In this document: piece by piece, positions 17,149 to 24,426 of the stretch
Layout: every line of letters starts with the position of its first letter
How positions within the stretch are numbered: position 1 is the stretch's first letter
Source: Candidatus Thorarchaeota archaeon
Lineage (GTDB): Archaea; Asgardarchaeota; Thorarchaeia; Thorarchaeales; Thorarchaeaceae
Assembly (NCBI GenBank): GCA_019057475.1
Contig: DXJO01000039.1
Location: forward strand, 38,640-102,639
DNA: 64,000 nucleotides
Direction: 5' to 3'
Made by a program: the position numbers and the translations under genes
The notes under the pieces: model-generated
What the model saw: the letters and a program-made list of their open reading frames with translations, nothing else
The model's database searches: none
What the model was told of the DNA's origin: nothing

Positions 17149-19098
17149 ATGACAGACGGCAAGCTATGGCTAGGTTTTTACCTGGATGAGGAAGGAAAGC
17201 GGACCAAAAACAAGTTCGAGATTAGTGTGGACCTTCTTCGAAGACATGGTGGCGTATTCGGATCTACGGGCTCGGGGAAGACGGTACTTAGTAAGGCCGT
17301 CATAGAAGAGGCCGCAATGCAGGGCATCCCCGTTCTGGCGTTCGACCCCCAAGGTGACATCGCCTCGTTAATGTTACCTGGTGATCCCAAGGAACTCCAA
17401 TCGAAAGGTGTTCCACCAGAACGTTTGAAGGAGTACATGGATAAGGTCATAGTACGTGTATACACACCAGCAAGCAGCAAAGGATTAGCAATCTCGATCA
17501 ACCCCTTGAAGCTGCCTGACAGGAAAGCAGACCAGGATGACGTCATAAGACTTCTTGATAACTCTGCAAGAACCCTCGTCAAAGTCCTGGCAAAGGTTGC
17601 GGGCCTCTCAAAGTCGTGGGAGAGTAAGTCATTCGCGGCGGTCTATGAGCTCCTCCGAAGCATCTGGGAGAATCCCAAGAAGGAAATTGGCACCTTAAAG
17701 GATCTCGCGAATATGCTCGTTTTGGACAAAGAAGAAATCGGAGTCGACTTGGAACCCTATATGAGGTTAACAGAGCGTCAGAAACTGGCGTCTACAATTA
17801 GGGCTCTTACTGTTGGCTCATCCCAGCTGCTCTTCAAAGAAGAAGGCCAGATTGACTTTGATTATTTGATCAAGCCTGTGAACGGGAAGACCCCAATCAA
17901 CGTTCTGTTTCTGAAGACCTTGCGCAGTGAGGAGGAAAAGCACTTCTTCATCGCTATAGTTCTAAATCAGCTATATTCTTGGATGCTAAGGCAAGGCTTT
18001 ACGAGTAAACCCAGACTACTCCTCTTCCAAGATGAAGCGGCACCCTTCATACCAGCTGGAATGCGGGCTCCAGGTCCCAAGGAAACTTTCCTTCTCCTCT
18101 TCAGACAGGCGAGGAAGTATGGAGTGGAATGCCTAATCGCCACTCAGAGCCCAAAGGATATCGATTACAAGGCATTCGAACAATTCAACACAATTGCCTC
18201 AGGCAGAATCAGCAGCGAGCAATCATTGAAGGTACTGGAGAGAATTCTCGAACCCATCGCAGGCGAGAAGCAGTCTGAAGAGATAATCCGGGCCCTCCCA
18301 GGCCAGCAGACGGCGACCTTTATTTTCTCGTCAGCAGAGATGAAGCCGAAGGTCAATCACATCGGAGTGCGATGGCTGCTCACTAGGCACATTACGCTGA
18401 CAGAGAAAGATGTTCAGAAACATATGTCTCAACTCGTCAAGCAGCAGCAAAAGATCCTTCAAGAGATGGAGCGCGTTCGACTAGGAGCGAAGGCAAAGAA
18501 GGAAGCCGAACGCCGAAGACTTGCCGAACAGAGGAAAAAGGATGCTGAACAACAACGCGCGGATGAGGAAAGGAGAAAGAAAGAAGAAGAAAACCGTCGT
18601 CGAAGGGAGAAAGAGCTTGCAGAGAAGAAGGCCAAGTTCAAGAAAGCCTCTGATAATGATAAGGTATTCTCAACTCGTGGCCAGGCGGGCACAATTTCTT
18701 ATGATGACCTCATCAATGGGTTCGTAGCAATGATAGAGGCTATCGCAAAAACCGCCTTTGGACTTCCGTTCTTGAGGGAGCTCGTGAAGCGAGGAGAACT
18801 CAACTACGAGAAAGCTCTGTCCTACTATCTAACGGAAACGAGAGCGGCAATTAAACAAGGCTTAGCTAAGAAAGAGAAGAAGGAAATCAAGAAACGAGGG
18901 AAGACCAAGAAGGTCACGTACATCGTCTATGATTTCGAATATGTGCTCAATGCAGTCATTAAAAGCATGGGCGTCAAAGAGCCCGATTACGTCGATGAAA
19001 AGAGGCTGAGAAAGCGCTTTGAACAGCTGGTCAAGAAAGCCTCCAGAAACAGCCTTCTCGAGCGCATCGTACTGGGAGAACCTTTCCTCCAGTTCTAG
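17149..19098 (+). CDS. HerA/FtsK-superfamily ATPase (DUF87/DUF853-like) with charged helical tail
   Basis: GSTGSGKT, FDPQGD, LFQDEA, RQARKYG..ATQSP. Confidence 0.88.
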   Translation: MTDGKLWLGFYLDEEGKRTKNKFEISVDLLRRHGGVFGSTGSGKTVLSKAVIEEAAMQGIPVLAFDPQGDIASLMLPGDPKELQSKGVPPERLKEYMDKVIVRVYTPASSKGLAISINPLKLPDRKADQDDVIRLLDNSARTLVKVLAKVAGLSKSWESKSFAAVYELLRSIWENPKKEIGTLKDLANMLVLDKEEIGVDLEPYMRLTERQKLASTIRALTVGSSQLLFKEEGQIDFDYLIKPVNGKTPINVLFLKTLRSEEEKHFFIAIVLNQLYSWMLRQGFTSKPRLLLFQDEAAPFIPAGMRAPGPKETFLLLFRQARKYGVECLIATQSPKDIDYKAFEQFNTIASGRISSEQSLKVLERILEPIAGEKQSEEIIRALPGQQTATFIFSSAEMKPKVNHIGVRWLLTRHITLTEKDVQKHMSQLVKQQQKILQEMERVRLGAKAKKEAERRRLAEQRKKDAEQQRADEERRKKEEENRRRREKELAEKKAKFKKASDNDKVFSTRGQAGTISYDDLINGFVAMIEAIAKTAFGLPFLRELVKRGELNYEKALSYYLTETRAAIKQGLAKKEKKEIKKRGKTKKVTYIVYDFEYVLNAVIKSMGVKEPDYVDEKRLRKRFEQLVKKASRNSLLERIVLGEPFLQF

Positions 19099-19811
19099 TT
19101 GGAACTGAACGTGGTCCATCCCTCAACCGTACAAGTGACCCACCGGTCCACCATTTCAAGCGTAAGATTCGCTGCAGAGGTCATCATGTCAGGCGTTGCG
19201 ACCGGAGCACCATAGATGAGAAGCAAGATGTTCTTGCTCTTTGGTGTAACCTTTGTTCTCTCCGAATCATGAGTAGCGTACCCAAAGCAGACTATTTTCT
19301 CGTCATCAGCAAGAACAATCTCCCGCCCTCTGCATGTGAGCTGCTTGCCCCCAATCCTCTCGAAAACCTCTCCCTTGTGGGCAGTGCGCACAACTAGGTT
19401 TCCCTCTAGAACAGTTTCATCAATCAATCCTATCGGAAGCTTGTGATAGGCTGACGCAAGATTCGCCACATCAACAAGAGTGGATATGCGCCAGAGGTTT
19501 AGGCCTCGCACAATCCTTCGCAGCAATGCCTCACTCGATACGCGAAGCTTGGTGGGATCCATTCCGAATGTCCAGTATAGGTCGCGATATGACCTGAAAA
19601 CAAGGTCATCCTTTACATCATCCAAAGTTGTTCGAGACCGTATCTCACCAAAGAGCTCCTGCTCATACTTCTCGAAATCAGAACTGGATTTGCCCAGGTC
19701 CAGCTCGATTAACCTTGCGATCATTAAACTGAGGCCTTCGCGCTGCACATCGAAACGTACAGCACGACCAAGAGAAATCCCCGCTTGAAATCCTGTATTG
19801 GATGGGCACAT
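19095..19811 (-). CDS. B3/4 domain protein (PheRS-beta editing-like)
   Basis: YRDLYWTFGMDPTKLRVSSEALLRR, LVDVANLAS, PIGLID; start uncertain. Confidence 0.88.
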   Translation of the reverse strand: MCPSNTGFQAGISLGRAVRFDVQREGLSLMIARLIELDLGKSSSDFEKYEQELFGEIRSRTTLDDVKDDLVFRSYRDLYWTFGMDPTKLRVSSEALLRRIVRGLNLWRISTLVDVANLASAYHKLPIGLIDETVLEGNLVVRTAHKGEVFERIGGKQLTCRGREIVLADDEKIVCFGYATHDSERTKVTPKSKNILLLIYGAPVATPDMMTSAANLTLEMVDRWVTCTVEGWTTFSSN

Positions 19812-19842
19812 GTTTCTCACGCCTGATTCTGAAGAAGCCCTG

Positions 19843-20709
19843 CTACAGCATCTCAATGACTTCCCGAAGGCTATTCACCTCTAGATCAGGAGTCATATCC
19901 ATGCCATCCACATCGAATGGAATGATATCGTCCGGATTGCGCCGAACAAGAATAGTTGCGAGACCTGCTGCCTTTCCTCCAGCAATGTCTGAAGCCGGGT
20001 TATCCCCGACCATCACAGCATCGCTCATCTCGAATCCAAGAGTTTTCACTGTTTCAATCACGATTTCAGGGAGTGGTTTCCTTACCGCAATTGCCTTCAC
20101 GCCAGTGGCATGCTCAATTGCTGCGACAATTGAACCCTCGCCGATGTAGATGTCCTCGTGCCCGAGATACACCCCAGGATAGTCCTTGCTTCCGCTGATG
20201 CACAGAAGAGATGCTCCTTGATGGACCATCTTGGTCGCAAAGTTGAGACGCTGAAAGGTGAGACCCCGGTCGGCTCCAACTGCCACGTAGTCGATGGGCG
20301 GGTTGTTAGTGACATCAAGACCTCTTGCAACAAAGTCCTCTGTGGCGCCTCCCTCGCTGATTACAAAGCATCTTGCACCAGGAGACCTATTGTGAACGTA
20401 CGCTGCCGCGGCAGCACCAGCACTGAATGTATTCTTGAGGCTGACATCGAACCCCGCAGAAGCCACAGCCCCGTGAATTTGCCGTGCAGAAAGCCGTCCG
20501 GTGTTAGTCAATAACGCAAGCGTTCTACGCTTTTCCATTAGAGCATTCCAGAGAGGCAAGGCGTCGGGGAATGGCTCAGGATGTTCTACATCCTTTATGA
20601 GCGTGTTATCAACATCGAATATCCACAGATGTTTGCTACTGAAGTCCATGGCAGTCACTATCTTGCTCCAATGCGAAGCATCCACAAAAGTCTGTCTGAC
20701 GCGATGCAT
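19843..20709 (-). CDS. HAD-IIA family hydrolase (NagD-like)
   Basis: FDVDNTL, LTNT, RKP (usually GKP), MVGDNPASDIAGG. Confidence 0.88.
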   Translation of the reverse strand: MHRVRQTFVDASHWSKIVTAMDFSSKHLWIFDVDNTLIKDVEHPEPFPDALPLWNALMEKRRTLALLTNTGRLSARQIHGAVASAGFDVSLKNTFSAGAAAAAYVHNRSPGARCFVISEGGATEDFVARGLDVTNNPPIDYVAVGADRGLTFQRLNFATKMVHQGASLLCISGSKDYPGVYLGHEDIYIGEGSIVAAIEHATGVKAIAVRKPLPEIVIETVKTLGFEMSDAVMVGDNPASDIAGGKAAGLATILVRRNPDDIIPFDVDGMDMTPDLEVNSLREVIEML

Positions 20710-21060: not shown

Positions 21061-21283
21061 ACGGAAGACCTCCGATATTGCCCGGAAAGTGCCGGATGAA
21101 GCGTTGTGCTGGCTCACAATATAATAACATTAGGTTATGACCACGTGGAATGAGAGATCTATCGTGAATGCTTGGACCAGCGGCATCATCGACTCACCGC
21201 AGAAAGTTTAATCTTGGCAGCTCTCGTTTGCGAATCACCTAGAATGCAGGAGAGTTGGCCTGCAGCTGTGGATGGTACTATTC

Positions 21284-21805
21284 ATGAGTGAAGAGAACAC
21301 ATACCTTCGAGCAAAACTGACCGAAATCAACAGCTCCATCAAGGGCTTGACTGAGATGCTCAATCGGATGATTGACGTCATGTCAAAGATCAGCGAGGTA
21401 CAAGACGCAATGTCTGAAACGAAAGCCCTTGCAACTGCGAATAGCCAGAAGCTTGATGCGCTCATGGAAAAGATCGAAGGCATCACTGTGGCCGCTTCAC
21501 CTGCTGCAAGACAGGCATCAATCGCTGAGAAAGGAGCAGTTCCTTCAATGCAGATAATACTCGACACATTGGAGTCCCAAGTCAGAGAAGGAGTAATCGC
21601 AAGCGATTTATCCATGAAGATAGGCGAAACTGTTCAAACCCTTGAACGAATGCTGGGCAAGTCTGGGCCACTCATTGTAAAGATGCAGCGGTGGACACGG
21701 ATTCTCAAAACGTACGGGAGGGTTGACACCATCAGTCCCCAGGACCTCCAGAAGCTGCGCTTAGACATCAAGGACTGGGGCAAAGAGCTGGCGAAGCTGA
21801 GATAA
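21284..21805 (+). CDS. Coiled-coil protein with Vps28 C-terminal-domain-like four-helix bundle
   Basis: N-terminal heptad repeat; C-terminal IGETVQTLERM...KMQRWTRILKTYGRVDTISPQDLQKLRLDI matches the Vps28 CTD pattern by eye. Confidence 0.6.
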   Translation: MSEENTYLRAKLTEINSSIKGLTEMLNRMIDVMSKISEVQDAMSETKALATANSQKLDALMEKIEGITVAASPAARQASIAEKGAVPSMQIILDTLESQVREGVIASDLSMKIGETVQTLERMLGKSGPLIVKMQRWTRILKTYGRVDTISPQDLQKLRLDIKDWGKELAKLR

Positions 21806-22020: not shown

Positions 22021-22359
22021 ATGCTTGATGATAATTGGAAGCGCACTGTGGAGGAAACGATTGAGCGTTTCCCAGTCACGCATAGGGATACTATTCTCAA
22101 AATATGGTATGATTGGCTTGACACCGACCCTCAAGCACCATTCTATGTCAGCTGGTCAGACTTCTCATCACAGCACGACGATCAAGAGGCTCTATACACA
22201 GAAACGAGAGTCTTCCTGAAGAGAGTCGCGAATGAGCTCAGGGAGCGCGAAGTCCCACGCACTAGCTGGCAAAAAATAGCGAAAGCTCTTGCTGCCGCTG
22301 CGAGTGTACTCCTTGTCATATTCCTAGCGCTTTCGAGGGCATTTCGTGCATCAGAGTGA
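22021..22359 (+). CDS. Hypothetical tail-anchored membrane protein
   Basis: Soluble helical N-terminus, single C-terminal TM and short basic tail. Confidence 0.65.
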   Translation: MLDDNWKRTVEETIERFPVTHRDTILKIWYDWLDTDPQAPFYVSWSDFSSQHDDQEALYTETRVFLKRVANELREREVPRTSWQKIAKALAAAASVLLVIFLALSRAFRASE

Positions 22360-22434: not shown

Positions 22435-23925
22435 ATGGAGTCAATAGTGTCAGCCCAGCCGAAAGCCATGCGCAGGCTCTTCCAGAGGGGAGCCAAGGCC
22501 ATTGAAGAATCCTCCAGAGTTCTTGCAATATCTCATATCGATACTGATGGAATCACTTCACTCGCCATTGTGATTAGCATGCTTCAAAGGGCAGAAAAGA
22601 CACTTCACTGGCAGAATATTCACCAGCTCAACTCCGAAACGATTCTTGAAGTCAAGCAGCTTGTCAAAGAGCATAAGCCCGACCTTGTGATATTTTCAGA
22701 CCTTGGTACTGGACAGATGCACTTGATAGAGGAGTACATCATCCCAGAGGACATTGAGAAGATAATCATACTGGATCATCATCTTCCATCTGATAGTCGC
22801 CAGCAGCTATCAGAGAGTTCTGAACAAGACAAGATTATTGAGATAAACCCCTGCCAACATAACATGAGTGGCAGCTATGACATTTCTGCAGCAGGGGTAT
22901 CTTTTCTTCAGGCGTATGCACTCTCGAAAGATAATGTAGACCTCAGCGAGTTGGCCATTGTCGGCGCGTCAGGTGATCTTCAGGATTACTACGGAAAGGG
23001 CTTCACTGGGTTGAACAAGGAGATAGTTAGTCTGGGAGAATCGGTAGGATGCATCCAAGTTGACAAAGACCTCACGTTCTTCGGGATAAACACAAGACCG
23101 TTGCCATTCCTGCTCGAGTATGCTACTGACCCATATCTTCCGGGAATCACTGGTGCACGCGAGGCGGTCTATTCATTCTATCAAGATCTGAAGATACCGC
23201 TCAAGACCTCAGACGACCAGTGGAGAATATGGGTTGATCTTAGTAGCGAAGAGAAGCAGAGAGTGGTTCAAGGTTTAGTCAATGTGATTCTTGAAACCTA
23301 CGAGAACCCCAAAGTTGCCACGGGAATAATAGGAGAGGTCATAACTCTCAAAAACAGACCGGCCAGGACTGAATTGAGCAGTTCGAAGGAGTTCTCCACT
23401 CTACTGAACGCGTGCGGAAGAAACAGGAGGGCTGAAGTTGGCGTCAAAATCTGCCTTGGTGACCAAGAGGCGCTCCTAGAAGGACGCACGCTTCTGAAAC
23501 AGCATAGGATGAATTTGGCAACAGCTTTGCGTAGGCTGGAATCAGAAGGCTACGAAGAGAAGCCTGGCATGTATGTTGTAAACGACCCACAGACTCAAGA
23601 CACCATTGTGGGCATTGTCATTGGGATGGCGCAAGGCTCTCGGATTGTGCCAGCGGATAGACCAGTGATTGGCGTGAGCACGAATACCACCGATGAAGGG
23701 CCAAGAGTCAAGGTTTCAGGCCGGTGTCGAAGATCCTTGGTGAAGAAAGGCATCAACCTGAAGGAAACATTCACTGAAGTTGGGGAGTACTTGAACGAAC
23801 AACATGACTCGCTAATCGTAGAAGCTGGAGGACATCCCATGGCAGCAGGGGCATTTGTTCACCAAGATCACTTAGATGAATTCCTGAATCGTGTTTCAGA
23901 CCTGATGGCGAAGATTCTTGGGTAG
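22435..23925 (+). CDS. DHH/DHHA1 family RecJ-like exonuclease (GAN/Cdc45-related)
   Basis: HIDTDG, FSDLG, LDHH, GDLQD, LLNACGR, GGHPMAAG. Confidence 0.9.
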   Translation: MESIVSAQPKAMRRLFQRGAKAIEESSRVLAISHIDTDGITSLAIVISMLQRAEKTLHWQNIHQLNSETILEVKQLVKEHKPDLVIFSDLGTGQMHLIEEYIIPEDIEKIIILDHHLPSDSRQQLSESSEQDKIIEINPCQHNMSGSYDISAAGVSFLQAYALSKDNVDLSELAIVGASGDLQDYYGKGFTGLNKEIVSLGESVGCIQVDKDLTFFGINTRPLPFLLEYATDPYLPGITGAREAVYSFYQDLKIPLKTSDDQWRIWVDLSSEEKQRVVQGLVNVILETYENPKVATGIIGEVITLKNRPARTELSSSKEFSTLLNACGRNRRAEVGVKICLGDQEALLEGRTLLKQHRMNLATALRRLESEGYEEKPGMYVVNDPQTQDTIVGIVIGMAQGSRIVPADRPVIGVSTNTTDEGPRVKVSGRCRRSLVKKGINLKETFTEVGEYLNEQHDSLIVEAGGHPMAAGAFVHQDHLDEFLNRVSDLMAKILG

Positions 23926-23952
23926 CTTGTCCTACGCTGTATTTTCCAGTTC

Positions 23953-24426
23953 CTAGTAGTCTTCTTTGGTCAAAGAGGCACCAATGATTCCAGGAATACC
24001 GAGCAGAGCAATGGCCACTCCAAAATCGATTCCAAGGTCAACTGCACTAGCGGAGATGGCTTCGAATGTGTACTCCACACCCTGAACAAGGATAGCAAAA
24101 CCTGCAAAGAAAAGACCAACGCAGACCAAGGAAACAACGATCATTCGCTTCCAATCCTTTGAGATAAGACCCGAAATGAAACCAGCCACTCCAAGGGCAA
24201 CGATTGGAGCGTAAGCTGCTTCGTCTCTCGCGAGGGTGTAAGGGCGCATCAATCCTTGGAACAATGCGGCTCCATATACTTTCAACGTGAGGATTATATC
24301 CCCGGAATCTGCAATCAATTGGATTTCCACCAAGCTCAAGCCCACAATCTGAAAAGCGCCGATGATTATCGCGGCAGACAGGGCGATTAGCAATGCAATG
24401 GTTGTTCTGAACATTTTCTCATGCAC
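23953..24426 (-). CDS. Hypothetical membrane protein
   Basis: 157 aa, ~4 TM helices. Confidence 0.72.
   Translation of the reverse strand: MHEKMFRTTIALLIALSAAIIIGAFQIVGLSLVEIQLIADSGDIILTLKVYGAALFQGLMRPYTLARDEAAYAPIVALGVAGFISGLISKDWKRMIVVSLVCVGLFFAGFAILVQGVEYTFEAISASAVDLGIDFGVAIALLGIPGIIGASLTKEDY

What the first reader, a model, noticed from the sequence alone, without database searches (positions are those of the whole stretch)
21284..21805. Coiled-coil protein ending in a Vps28-CTD-like domain, away from any ESCRT gene
Seen: an N-terminal heptad coiled coil, an Ala/Pro linker, then IILDTL...IGETVQTLERM...KMQRWTRILKTYGRVDTISPQDLQKLRLDI. From memory, human VPS28 CTD reads ITVMDKL...LRELMETMHRM...TVSQWLQTLSGMSASDELDDSQVRQMLFDL, with the same register of E, T, RM, W, L, D and D-hydrophobic. 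Known: Vps28 CTD links ESCRT-I to ESCRT-II/III, and Asgards encode ESCRT. Inference: an alternative oligomeric ESCRT adaptor lacking the steadiness-box head.
Basis: partly seen in the sequence, partly recalled or inferred. Interest (0 to 1): 0.72.

Follow-up and report, generated by a model that had tools for sequence, protein, structure and literature searches.

The report
Thorarchaeial coiled-coil protein with Vps28-C bundle
This small gene, present in every Thorarchaeia genome searched, encodes one long coiled-coil helix tied by a floppy linker to a four-helix bundle that is a true distant relative of the tail domain of the ESCRT-I protein Vps28. Asgard proteins of this general kind were described in 2024, and its role in membrane remodelling is inferred, not shown.

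Summary

The Vps28-CTD reading of the bundle is supported three ways:
- Vps28 CTD structures are the top fold matches by two aligners (Z 12.6; TM 0.75-0.80).
- A 33-sequence family profile aligns to canonical Asgard Vps28 over the whole CTD (hhalign 91%, P 1e-6; reversed and shuffled controls P at least 0.07).
- One Loki-type protein segment is hit by both Pfam VPS28 and this family's profile.

It is not Vps28. It has no steadiness-box head, no Pfam hit, and lies on a different contig from the ESCRT cluster.

In 41 Thor genomes (own included) an Asgard Vps28 profile finds only the N-terminal half, fused to Vps22. All 27 Thor-family genomes in the phylum sample carry this family, nearly all as two paralogues: this 173-aa form and a longer one flanked by two Ras-like GTPases.

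Makarova et al. 2024 already described Asgard Vps28-C fusion proteins, including a Thor one, and other follow-ups in this scan reached the same verdict on orthologues. It is a new member of a known kind. ESCRT binding is untested.

The parts
21284..21805 (+). Complete CDS (173 aa plus stop) of the coiled-coil/Vps28-C-like protein, called 'class 1' of the family here
   Evidence: Translation. The start is fixed by the alignment of 31 homologues. 212 homologous clusters. Found in 26 of 26 sampled genomes of the same family and in the own genome.
21290..21487 (+). N-terminal long helix, residues 3-68, heptad coiled-coil-like
   Evidence: AlphaFold2 helix 3-68. 3.5-residue hydrophobic periodicity, with all seven heptad positions 75-88% conserved. 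Residues 6-40 are nearly invariant across genera. No similarity to the Vps28 N-terminal/steadiness-box half (hhalign P 0.55).
21488..21523 (+). Flexible Ala/Pro/Ser-rich linker, residues 69-80
   Evidence: pLDDT below 50. Variable in length and sequence in the family alignment.
21524..21802 (+). Vps28-C-like four-helix bundle, residues 81-173
   Evidence: Folded alone: pLDDT 89.7, pTM 0.79. Foldseek top four hits are all Vps28 CTD. VIA-align Z 12.6 to 2j9u_A. hhalign of the family profile against Asgard Vps28: 91%, P 1.1e-6 over 89 columns.
22021..22359 (+). Conserved co-directional neighbour: 112-aa protein with a single C-terminal hydrophobic segment (tail-anchored type). Context only, not shown to be a partner.
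   Evidence: Adjacent in 22 of the 26 other Thor loci examined. Found in 23 of 26 sampled genomes of the same family and 1 of 1 of the sister family, with only two marginal matches (E about 1e-3) elsewhere in the phylum sample. No Pfam family.
22435..23925 (+). Conserved co-directional neighbour: DHH / DHH-CID / DHHA1 protein (RecJ/Cdc45-like GAN type). Context only.
   Evidence: Pfam PF21763, PF02272, PF01368. Downstream of the gene in 23 of the 26 other Thor loci.

Best explanation
The gene encodes a soluble scaffold or adaptor protein of Thorarchaeia built on the plan of Vps28: an assembly element, a flexible linker and a Vps28-C four-helix bundle. The assembly element differs from that of Vps28. 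Instead of the steadiness-box hairpin there is one roughly 65-residue helix with heptad periodicity.

Shown:
- the domain anatomy;
- homology of the bundle to the Vps28 C-terminal domain;
- membership of a family with members in several Asgard lineages, with two to three paralogues per Thor genome;
- Thor genomes carry the Vps28 N-terminal half only as a fusion to Vps22, and no canonical Vps28.

Inferred:
- the helix docks into a homo- or hetero-oligomeric helical assembly. All of its faces are conserved, which argues for a fixed partner rather than a plain self-coil;
- the tethered bundle makes the kind of contact the Vps28 CTD makes in eukaryotes, with ESCRT-II or with the Vps20-like ESCRT-III. 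In this genome the candidates are the Vps28N-Vps22 fusion, Vps25, the ESCRT-III proteins and the zinc-finger + PH protein encoded in the ESCRT cluster on contig C26.

On this reading Thorarchaeia have split the two halves of Vps28 between different proteins. My confidence is about 0.85 for the homology and architecture and about 0.4-0.45 for the ESCRT-binding function. The figure given is for the whole statement.
For: Anatomy.

Fold: Vps28 CTD is the best match in two independent aligners, for the full-length model and for the domain alone. The values are Z 12.2-12.6, rmsd 2.4 A over 93 of 94 residues, and TM 0.75-0.80. The next unrelated bundles score Z 10.1-10.7.

Sequence:
- hhalign of the 33-sequence C-domain profile against 15 canonical Asgard Vps28 gives Prob 91%, P 1.1e-6 and 89 aligned columns, exactly the CTD.
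- Reversed profiles give P 0.16 and 0.24. Twenty column shuffles give P 0.07-0.9.
- Subfamilies alone: this class P 0.007 over 81 columns, the subfamily from the small (about 1.4 Mb) genomes of family f3 P 1.2e-6, the 311-403-aa class 6e-4.

Transitive link: residues about 689-782 of a 788-aa DDRGK/PCI protein are hit both by Pfam VPS28 above its cut-off and by this family's profile (E 1e-5 and 4e-6).

Phyletic pattern:
- The family is in 26 of 26 sampled genomes of the window's family plus the own genome.
- Pfam VPS28 is over its cut-off in 0 of those 27, against 101 of the 124 genomes from other families.
- The weak VPS28 hits in 414-aa Thor ORFs are not Vps28 (hhalign P 0.33).
- An Asgard Vps28 HMM hits only profile positions 17-100 at E below 1e-10 in 40 of 41 Thor genomes. 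In the own genome that hit shares the 279-aa frame with the EAP30 hit.

Literature: Makarova et al. 2024 (PMC10936438) describe Asgard multidomain proteins with Vps28-C and argue they could reach ESCRT-II without core ESCRT-I. Their Table S3 lists a Thor protein with a BAR-like N-terminus plus a 2J9U_A match, and a Thor Vps22 with a Vps28-N steadiness box.
Against: - No interaction was tested or could be modelled. No multimer prediction was available.
- The gene is not near any ESCRT gene. The ESCRT cluster is on another contig. Its strongly conserved neighbours are a cupin, a HAD hydrolase, a tail-anchored protein and a RecJ/Cdc45-like nuclease.
- Four-helix bundles are common. The tool's own note says Z below about 13 for helical bundles may reflect only a common arrangement, and the Foldseek E-values are weak (0.015-0.17).
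- This subfamily on its own reaches only P 0.007-0.05 against Vps28.
- HMMER finds no VPS28 match for the protein. Only 1 of 33 C-domains matches, at E 0.047. A profile search of PDB sequences does not retrieve Vps28.
- If Vps28-N is already fused to Vps22, the classical job of the CTD (linking ESCRT-I to ESCRT-II) may not be needed, so the bundle may have another partner.
Confidence: 0.5

Rival explanations
1. The bundle does derive from the Vps28-C lineage, but this paralogue has been recruited to a process unrelated to ESCRT. One candidate is something linked to its fixed neighbours: the tail-anchored membrane protein and the RecJ/Cdc45-like GAN nuclease, for example anchoring or regulating a replication or division factor at the membrane.
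For: The order HAD - cupin - this gene - tail-anchored ORF - DHH/GAN is kept in nearly all of the 26 other Thor loci examined, although the proteins are only 45-70% identical. The three downstream genes are co-directional. There is no ESCRT gene on the contig. The Vps28N-Vps22 fusion may make a linking CTD redundant.
Against: The intergenic gaps of 216 and 76 nt do not indicate tight coupling. The tail-anchored gene was not found in genus g9 and lies 10 kb away in the sister family. Family members outside Thorarchaeia sit among unrelated housekeeping genes. Conserved order within one taxonomic family can be inherited rather than functional.
Confidence: 0.25
2. The resemblance to Vps28-C is convergence among small up-down four-helix bundles. 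The protein would then be a generic coiled-coil structural protein with an unrelated helical cap.
For: Many unrelated bundles score Z 8-10.7 (CheA P1/HPt, designed repeats, Psb27, PsbQ). The Foldseek E-values are above 0.01. Pfam and PDB sequence searches give only coiled-coil noise.
Against: The profile-profile P of 1.1e-6 covers the whole domain in one register, and reversed and shuffled controls stay at P 0.07 or above. Invariant Trp and Leu of helix 3 and Trp of helix 4 align with invariant Vps28 positions. One segment is hit by both Pfam VPS28 and this family's profile. Vps28 is first in both aligners with both models. No invariant His exists that an HPt domain would need.
Confidence: 0.12
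3. The N-terminal helix is a SNARE-like motif with a central polar layer, and it pairs with the neighbouring tail-anchored protein in a fusion or tethering complex. This lead came from another first-stage note in the scan.
For: There is a weak Pfam Synaptobrevin match (E 0.036, 14.3 bits, residues 28-72). Gln40 is invariant at a core 'a' position with eight heptad layers on each side, and Asn53 is invariant. A tail-anchored protein is encoded next door.
Against: The Synaptobrevin score is far below the cut-off of 26.4 bits, and the family is not among the 25 that most of the 27 members match. The recurrent hits are generic coiled-coil families. The heptad register breaks between residues 39 and 57. 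The protein has no membrane anchor. The tail-anchored neighbour is not always present.
Confidence: 0.05

Closest known systems
Vps28 C-terminal domain (C-terminal half of Pfam PF03997; PDB 2J9U, 2J9V, 2G3K yeast; 2J9W Xenopus)
   Same: A four-helix up-down bundle of about 93 residues, tethered by a flexible linker to an assembly element. It is the best structural match (Z 12.6, TM 0.75-0.80). The profile-profile match spans the whole domain (P 1.1e-6), with the Trp/Leu of helix 3 and the Trp of helix 4 in register.
   Different: There is no steadiness-box/core hairpin; a single long heptad helix takes its place. Identity to solved CTDs is only 11-17%. Pfam does not detect the domain. The gene is not next to vps22/vps23-like genes. 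Binding to ESCRT-II/III is untested.
Asgard multidomain Vps28-C proteins of Makarova et al. 2024 (mBio, PMC10936438), including the Thorarchaeota protein KXH73277.1 (N-terminal BAR-like helices plus a 2J9U_A match at residues 155-235)
   Same: The concept is the same: a Vps28-C bundle fused to a non-ESCRT-I N-terminal module in an Asgard archaeon, proposed to reach ESCRT-II without core ESCRT-I. By length and domain positions KXH73277.1 is probably the 214-268-aa paralogue of this family. That paralogue shares both the N-terminal helix motif and the bundle with this protein (E 8e-31 in the own genome).
   Different: This is the shorter 173-aa class, with its own fixed gene neighbourhood. I could not retrieve KXH73277.1 to confirm which class it is. 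The one class-2 accession I could resolve is KXH75334.1. The paper's text does not discuss this class, its presence in every Thor genome searched, or the lack of canonical Vps28 in Thor.
Loki-type 788-aa DDRGK / PCI winged-helix / Vps28-C protein (L054:3405-5768, family f9)
   Same: Its C-terminal bundle is recognised both by Pfam VPS28 (24.7 bits, just over the cut-off) and by this family's profile. This ties the two families together.
   Different: It is a large multidomain protein with UFM1-ligase-like and PCI domains and has no N-terminal coiled coil.

Membership tests
Vps28 (ESCRT-I subunit, Pfam PF03997, full length) | N-terminal core / steadiness-box helical hairpin that joins the ESCRT-I headpiece | tested here: not met
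   AlphaFold2 gives one continuous helix (3-68), not a hairpin. hhalign of the N-terminal profile against the N-terminal half of Asgard Vps28 gives P 0.55. In the own genome the Vps28-N signal sits in the same 279-aa frame as the EAP30/Vps22 hit; in other Thor genomes it sits in ORFs of similar size.
Vps28 (ESCRT-I subunit, Pfam PF03997, full length) | C-terminal four-helix bundle homologous to Vps28 CTD | tested here: met
   hhalign 91%, P 1.1e-6 over 89 columns, with negative controls. Top fold match in Foldseek and VIA-align.
Vps28 (ESCRT-I subunit, Pfam PF03997, full length) | Scores above the Pfam gathering threshold (24.5 bits) | tested here: not met
   There is no PF03997 match for the protein at E up to 10. 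One of 33 family C-domains matches, at E 0.047.
Vps28 (ESCRT-I subunit, Pfam PF03997, full length) | CTD binds ESCRT-II (Vps36) and/or Vps20 | not testable with these tools
   No multimer prediction or binding assay is available here.
Asgard Vps28-C fusion proteins (Makarova et al. 2024) | Vps28-C bundle joined to a different N-terminal module, encoded in an Asgard genome | tested here: met
   Bundle homology as above. The N-terminal module is a coiled-coil helix. The named homologues are nearly all Thorarchaeota MAGs, and the genome carries Asgard-type Vps22, Vps25, Vps4 and ESCRT-III genes.
Asgard Vps28-C fusion proteins (Makarova et al. 2024) | Genomic association with ESCRT genes | tested here: not met
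   The ESCRT cluster is on contig C26 and this gene on C19. The conserved neighbours are a cupin, a HAD hydrolase, a tail-anchored ORF and a DHH nuclease.
SNARE proteins | SNARE motif recognised by SNARE/Synaptobrevin profiles, with a membrane anchor | tested here: not met
   Synaptobrevin scores 14.3 bits against a cut-off of 26.4, and the family is not among the 25 that most of the 27 members match. No hydrophobic anchor is present in the sequence.
SNARE proteins | About 16 heptad layers around a central polar zero layer | tested here: inconclusive
   Gln40 is invariant at an 'a' position with eight layers on either side, but the hydrophobic register is broken between residues 39 and 57.
HPt / CheA P1 phosphotransfer domains | Conserved phospho-accepting histidine on helix 2 | tested here: not met
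   There is no invariant or nearly invariant His in the 31-sequence alignment. The structural score is below that of Vps28 (Z 10.3-10.7 against 12.2-12.6).

The most novel reading that the evidence does not exclude
Thorarchaeia have taken Vps28 apart. The steadiness-box half is fused to Vps22 (ESCRT-II). The CTD half survives only on coiled-coil proteins that every Thor genome searched carries, usually as two paralogues: this one and a longer one flanked by Ras-like GTPases. The 173-aa protein would then be the lineage's functional stand-in for the Vps28 tail. It would be an oligomeric, ESCRT-I-independent recruiter of ESCRT-II/III, possibly docking on the zinc-finger/PH protein of the ESCRT cluster in the way yeast Vps28-CTD docks on the Vps36 zinc finger. 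That would give a natural experiment on how the ESCRT-I/II junction evolved.
Probability: 0.3. Interest if true: 0.7.

Novelty: new member of a known kind. Interest (0 to 1): 0.45.

Why it matters
Asgard ESCRT systems are the closest prokaryotic model for the origin of eukaryotic membrane trafficking, and the ESCRT-I/II junction is their most variable and least understood part.

This result places a previously unannotated 'hypothetical protein', found in every Thorarchaeia genome searched, among Vps28-C-bearing proteins. It also shows that the lineage has no detectable canonical Vps28, and that the Vps28 head sits on Vps22.

That yields concrete binding tests of moderate interest to specialists: which ESCRT-II/III or zinc-finger partner does the bundle bind, and what does the invariant helix assemble with? 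It does not overturn current views, because reuse of the Vps28-C module in Asgard archaea is already published.

Tried and rejected
- Pfam and PDB sequence searches with the single protein gave only coiled-coil noise: FUSC, DUF3584, Synaptobrevin, sigma-1, GCN4 fusions.
- A profile search of PDB sequences with the 33-sequence C-domain alignment did not retrieve Vps28. The best hit was a 27-residue stretch of a photosystem II 'predicted protein' at E 0.005, judged chance.
- The ESM Atlas gave no usable hit for the C-domain.
- The only PF03997 hit in the own genome (E 0.47, contig C26, L001) lies in a 188-aa ORF that does not resemble the Vps28 sequences recovered later.
- The weak PF03997 hits (E about 1e-3) in 414-522-aa Thor ORFs looked like a divergent Thor Vps28. 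hhalign against Asgard Vps28 gives P 0.33, so I rejected them.
- N-terminal helix as a steadiness box or Vps28 head: rejected (P 0.55).
- SNARE-like reading: not supported across the family.
- HPt and Psb27 readings: lower structural scores and no conserved His.
- Family members outside Thorarchaeia: their immediate neighbours are housekeeping genes (PHP, phosphodiesterase, AdoMet synthetase, RDD, CoA ligase, Memo, UvrC) and no ESCRT gene.
- I could not confirm which paralogue class the published KXH73277.1 belongs to. Cluster look-up resolved only KXH75334.1 for class 2.

Full report
**The sequence.** An upstream ATG at 21272 is open. Thirty-one aligned homologues start at the conserved MSEE(D)TY, so 21284 is the start. 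The antisense ORF at 21235-21615 is a shadow frame.

The protein has 212 homologous 90%-identity clusters, almost all named Candidatus Thorarchaeota. They are 60-65% identical to it, with 52 invariant columns. It is a real gene under strong constraint. An exhaustive search of 1.8 billion cluster representatives found only 12 relatives. They include 214-270-aa proteins that share both the N-terminal helix motif and the C-terminal domain.

**Anatomy.**
- AlphaFold2 with a 27-sequence alignment gives mean pLDDT 80. It predicts one helix at residues 3-68, a disordered segment at 69-80 and four helices at 81-99, 106-124, 129-142 and 152-172.
- Hydrophobic positions in residues 5-68 have a sharp 3.5-residue period. 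All seven heptad positions are about equally conserved (0.75-0.88). The register is regular from 12 to 36 and is disturbed around the invariant Gln40 and Asn53. I read this as a coiled-coil-type helix that sits in a fixed multi-helix assembly, not a generic self-coil. That reading is inference.
- The C-domain folded alone with 33 diverse family members gives pLDDT 89.7 and pTM 0.79.

**Is the bundle Vps28-C? Structure.**
- For the full model, Foldseek ranks Xenopus Vps28 CTD (2j9w) first (target TM 0.75, probability 1.0, E 0.05).
- An all-against-representatives VIA-align search ranks yeast Vps28 CTD (2j9u_A) first, with Z 12.2 and rmsd 2.4 A over 93 of 94 residues. The next rows are a designed repeat protein (10.7) and CheA P1 (10.3).
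- For the domain alone, the first four Foldseek rows are all Vps28 CTD (2j9w_A/B, 2j9v, 2g3k_A; TM 0.75-0.80; E 0.015-0.17). VIA-align gives Z 12.6 against 10.7 for the next fold.
- The tool warns that helical bundles can reach such Z values by common arrangement, so structure alone is suggestive and not decisive.

**Is the bundle Vps28-C? Sequence.**
- I took 15 canonical Asgard Vps28 proteins from a PF03997 scan of 151 genomes of the phylum.
- The Thor-only alignment (Neff 1.7) aligns to them over the whole CTD, but at P 0.05.
- A broad C-domain profile gives Prob 91%, P 1.1e-6 and 89 columns, covering Vps28 columns 121-217 of 229. This profile holds 33 sequences: this class, the 214-268-aa class, a 311-403-aa class, and members from four other Asgard families.
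- Controls: reversed profiles give P 0.16 and 0.24, and twenty column shuffles give P 0.07-0.9.
- By subfamily: this class alone P 0.007 (81 columns), the subfamily from the small (about 1.4 Mb) genomes of family f3 P 1.2e-6, the long class 6e-4. That f3 subfamily is tied to the Thor classes by HMMER at E 1e-14.
- An independent link: residues about 689-782 of a 788-aa DDRGK/PCI protein are matched both by Pfam VPS28 (24.7-26.3 bits, over the cut-off) and by this family's profile (E 1e-5 to 4e-6).
- I conclude that the bundle is a true, distant homologue of Vps28-C (about 0.85).
- HMMER-level tools do not see it.

**What it is not.** The N-terminal helix shows no similarity to the Vps28 head (P 0.55). 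A SNARE-like reading, a lead from another note in this scan, rests on a 14-bit Synaptobrevin match that does not recur in the family. No conserved His supports an HPt reading.

**Genomic setting.**
- The genome's ESCRT cluster is on contig C26. It holds a zinc-finger/PH protein (573 aa), ESCRT-III, Vps4, Vps25 and Vps22/EAP30. A second Snf7 is on C56.
- The window is on C19.
- Around the gene, the order HAD - cupin - gene - 112-aa tail-anchored ORF - DHH/DHH-CID (RecJ/Cdc45-like GAN) recurs in nearly all of the 26 other Thor loci examined.
- The tail-anchored ORF is essentially confined to Thor.
- None of this points to ESCRT. It is the main argument for the rival that this paralogue works elsewhere.

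**Family picture.**
- The family profile finds the protein in 26 of 26 sampled genomes of the window's family, in the sister family, and more weakly in four other Asgard families.
- Nearly every Thor genome has a second paralogue of 214-268 aa. In the own genome it is at C39:32024-32731. Some genomes have a third of 311-403 aa.
- The second paralogue always lies between two Ras-family GTPase genes, next to a CBS protein and PheRS-beta. This held in the own genome and in 5 of 5 other genomes checked, at only 38-41% identity in four of them.

**Thor has no canonical Vps28.**
- PF03997 is over its cut-off in 101 of 151 genomes of the phylum, but in 0 of 27 of the window's family.
- The weak hits in 414-aa Thor ORFs are spurious.
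- An HMM of Asgard Vps28 hits only profile positions about 17-100, at E below 1e-10, in 40 of 41 Thor genomes. In the own genome this lies in the same 279-aa frame as the EAP30 match; elsewhere it lies in ORFs of similar size.
- This agrees with Makarova et al. 2024, Table S3 (Thor Vps22 with a Vps28-N steadiness box) and with the Thor 'Vps22' sequence printed in Hatano et al. 2022.
- So in Thorarchaeia the Vps28 head is on Vps22, and the only Vps28-C-like bundles I could find are on these coiled-coil proteins.

**Mechanism.**
- Shown: the architecture (assembly helix, flexible linker, Vps28-C bundle) mirrors Vps28 (hairpin, linker, CTD).
- Inferred: the helix fixes the protein in an oligomer or hetero-complex. 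The bundle contacts ESCRT-II/III, or the zinc-finger/PH protein, by analogy with the yeast Vps28-CTD/Vps36-NZF contact described in PMC10936438.
- No interaction could be tested.

**Novelty.** Makarova et al. 2024 already report diverse Asgard proteins with Vps28-C and list a Thor protein (KXH73277.1) with a BAR-like N-terminus and a 2J9U_A match at HHpred probability 84. By its size it is probably the longer paralogue, which I could not verify. Other follow-up reports in this scan reached the same verdict on orthologues in other genomes. This is a new member of a known kind. The added points are its presence in every Thor genome searched, the paralogue structure, the fixed neighbourhoods and the absence of canonical Vps28 in the lineage.

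Noticed in passing
L052:10016-10819 (-) = G000:C39:32024-32731, with L052:8978-9568 (+) and L052:10900-11496 (+): The longer paralogue (about 239-268 aa; same N-terminal helix motif and Vps28-C-like bundle) lies between two Ras-family small GTPase genes, next to a CBS-pair protein and PheRS-beta. The arrangement PheRS-beta / Ras / CBS / paralogue / Ras / 180-aa ORF recurs in 5 of 5 other Thor genomes examined, although the paralogue is only 38-41% identical in four of them. This suggests a trafficking role for that paralogue.
   Followed up: partly
window:22021-22359 (+): A 112-aa protein with one C-terminal hydrophobic segment (tail-anchored type) and no Pfam family. It is essentially confined to Thor and almost always sits directly downstream of the Vps28-C-like gene and upstream of the GAN-type DHH nuclease.
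   Followed up: partly
L074:9383-10189 (-) = G000:C26, about 23382-24188: The Vps22/EAP30 gene of this genome carries the Vps28 N-terminal (steadiness-box) domain at its N-terminus. The hit to an Asgard Vps28 HMM is E 4.7e-14 at positions 18-96. Comparable hits in ORFs of similar size occur in 39 of the 40 other Thor genomes searched. No Vps28 CTD was found next to it.
   Followed up: yes
L074:4888-6606 (+) = G000:C26, about 18887-20605: A 573-aa protein with weak B-box zinc-finger and bacterial-PH matches heads the ESCRT cluster. It is probably the Znr_PH_CC_SB type described by Makarova et al. 2024, and is a candidate docking partner for a Vps28-C bundle.
   Followed up: no
L053:9944-11152 (-) and L053:5049-8942 (-) (G063:C68): In some Thor genomes a third, 311-403-aa paralogue has several coiled-coil repeats before the Vps28-C-like bundle. 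In G063 it lies next to a 1298-aa TrmB-HTH / apolipoprotein-like coiled-coil giant and a D-aminoacyl-tRNA deacylase.
   Followed up: no
L054:3405-5768 (-) (G040:C36): A 788-aa protein of another Asgard family combines DDRGK, UFM1-ligase-like/PCI winged-helix domains and a C-terminal Vps28-C domain. This hints at a link between a UFM1-like system and ESCRT.
   Followed up: no
window:17149-19098 (+): A 649-aa HerA/DUF87-type ATPase with a long, highly charged Lys/Glu/Arg-rich coiled-coil insert, followed by a B3/4-domain protein on the opposite strand.
   Followed up: no
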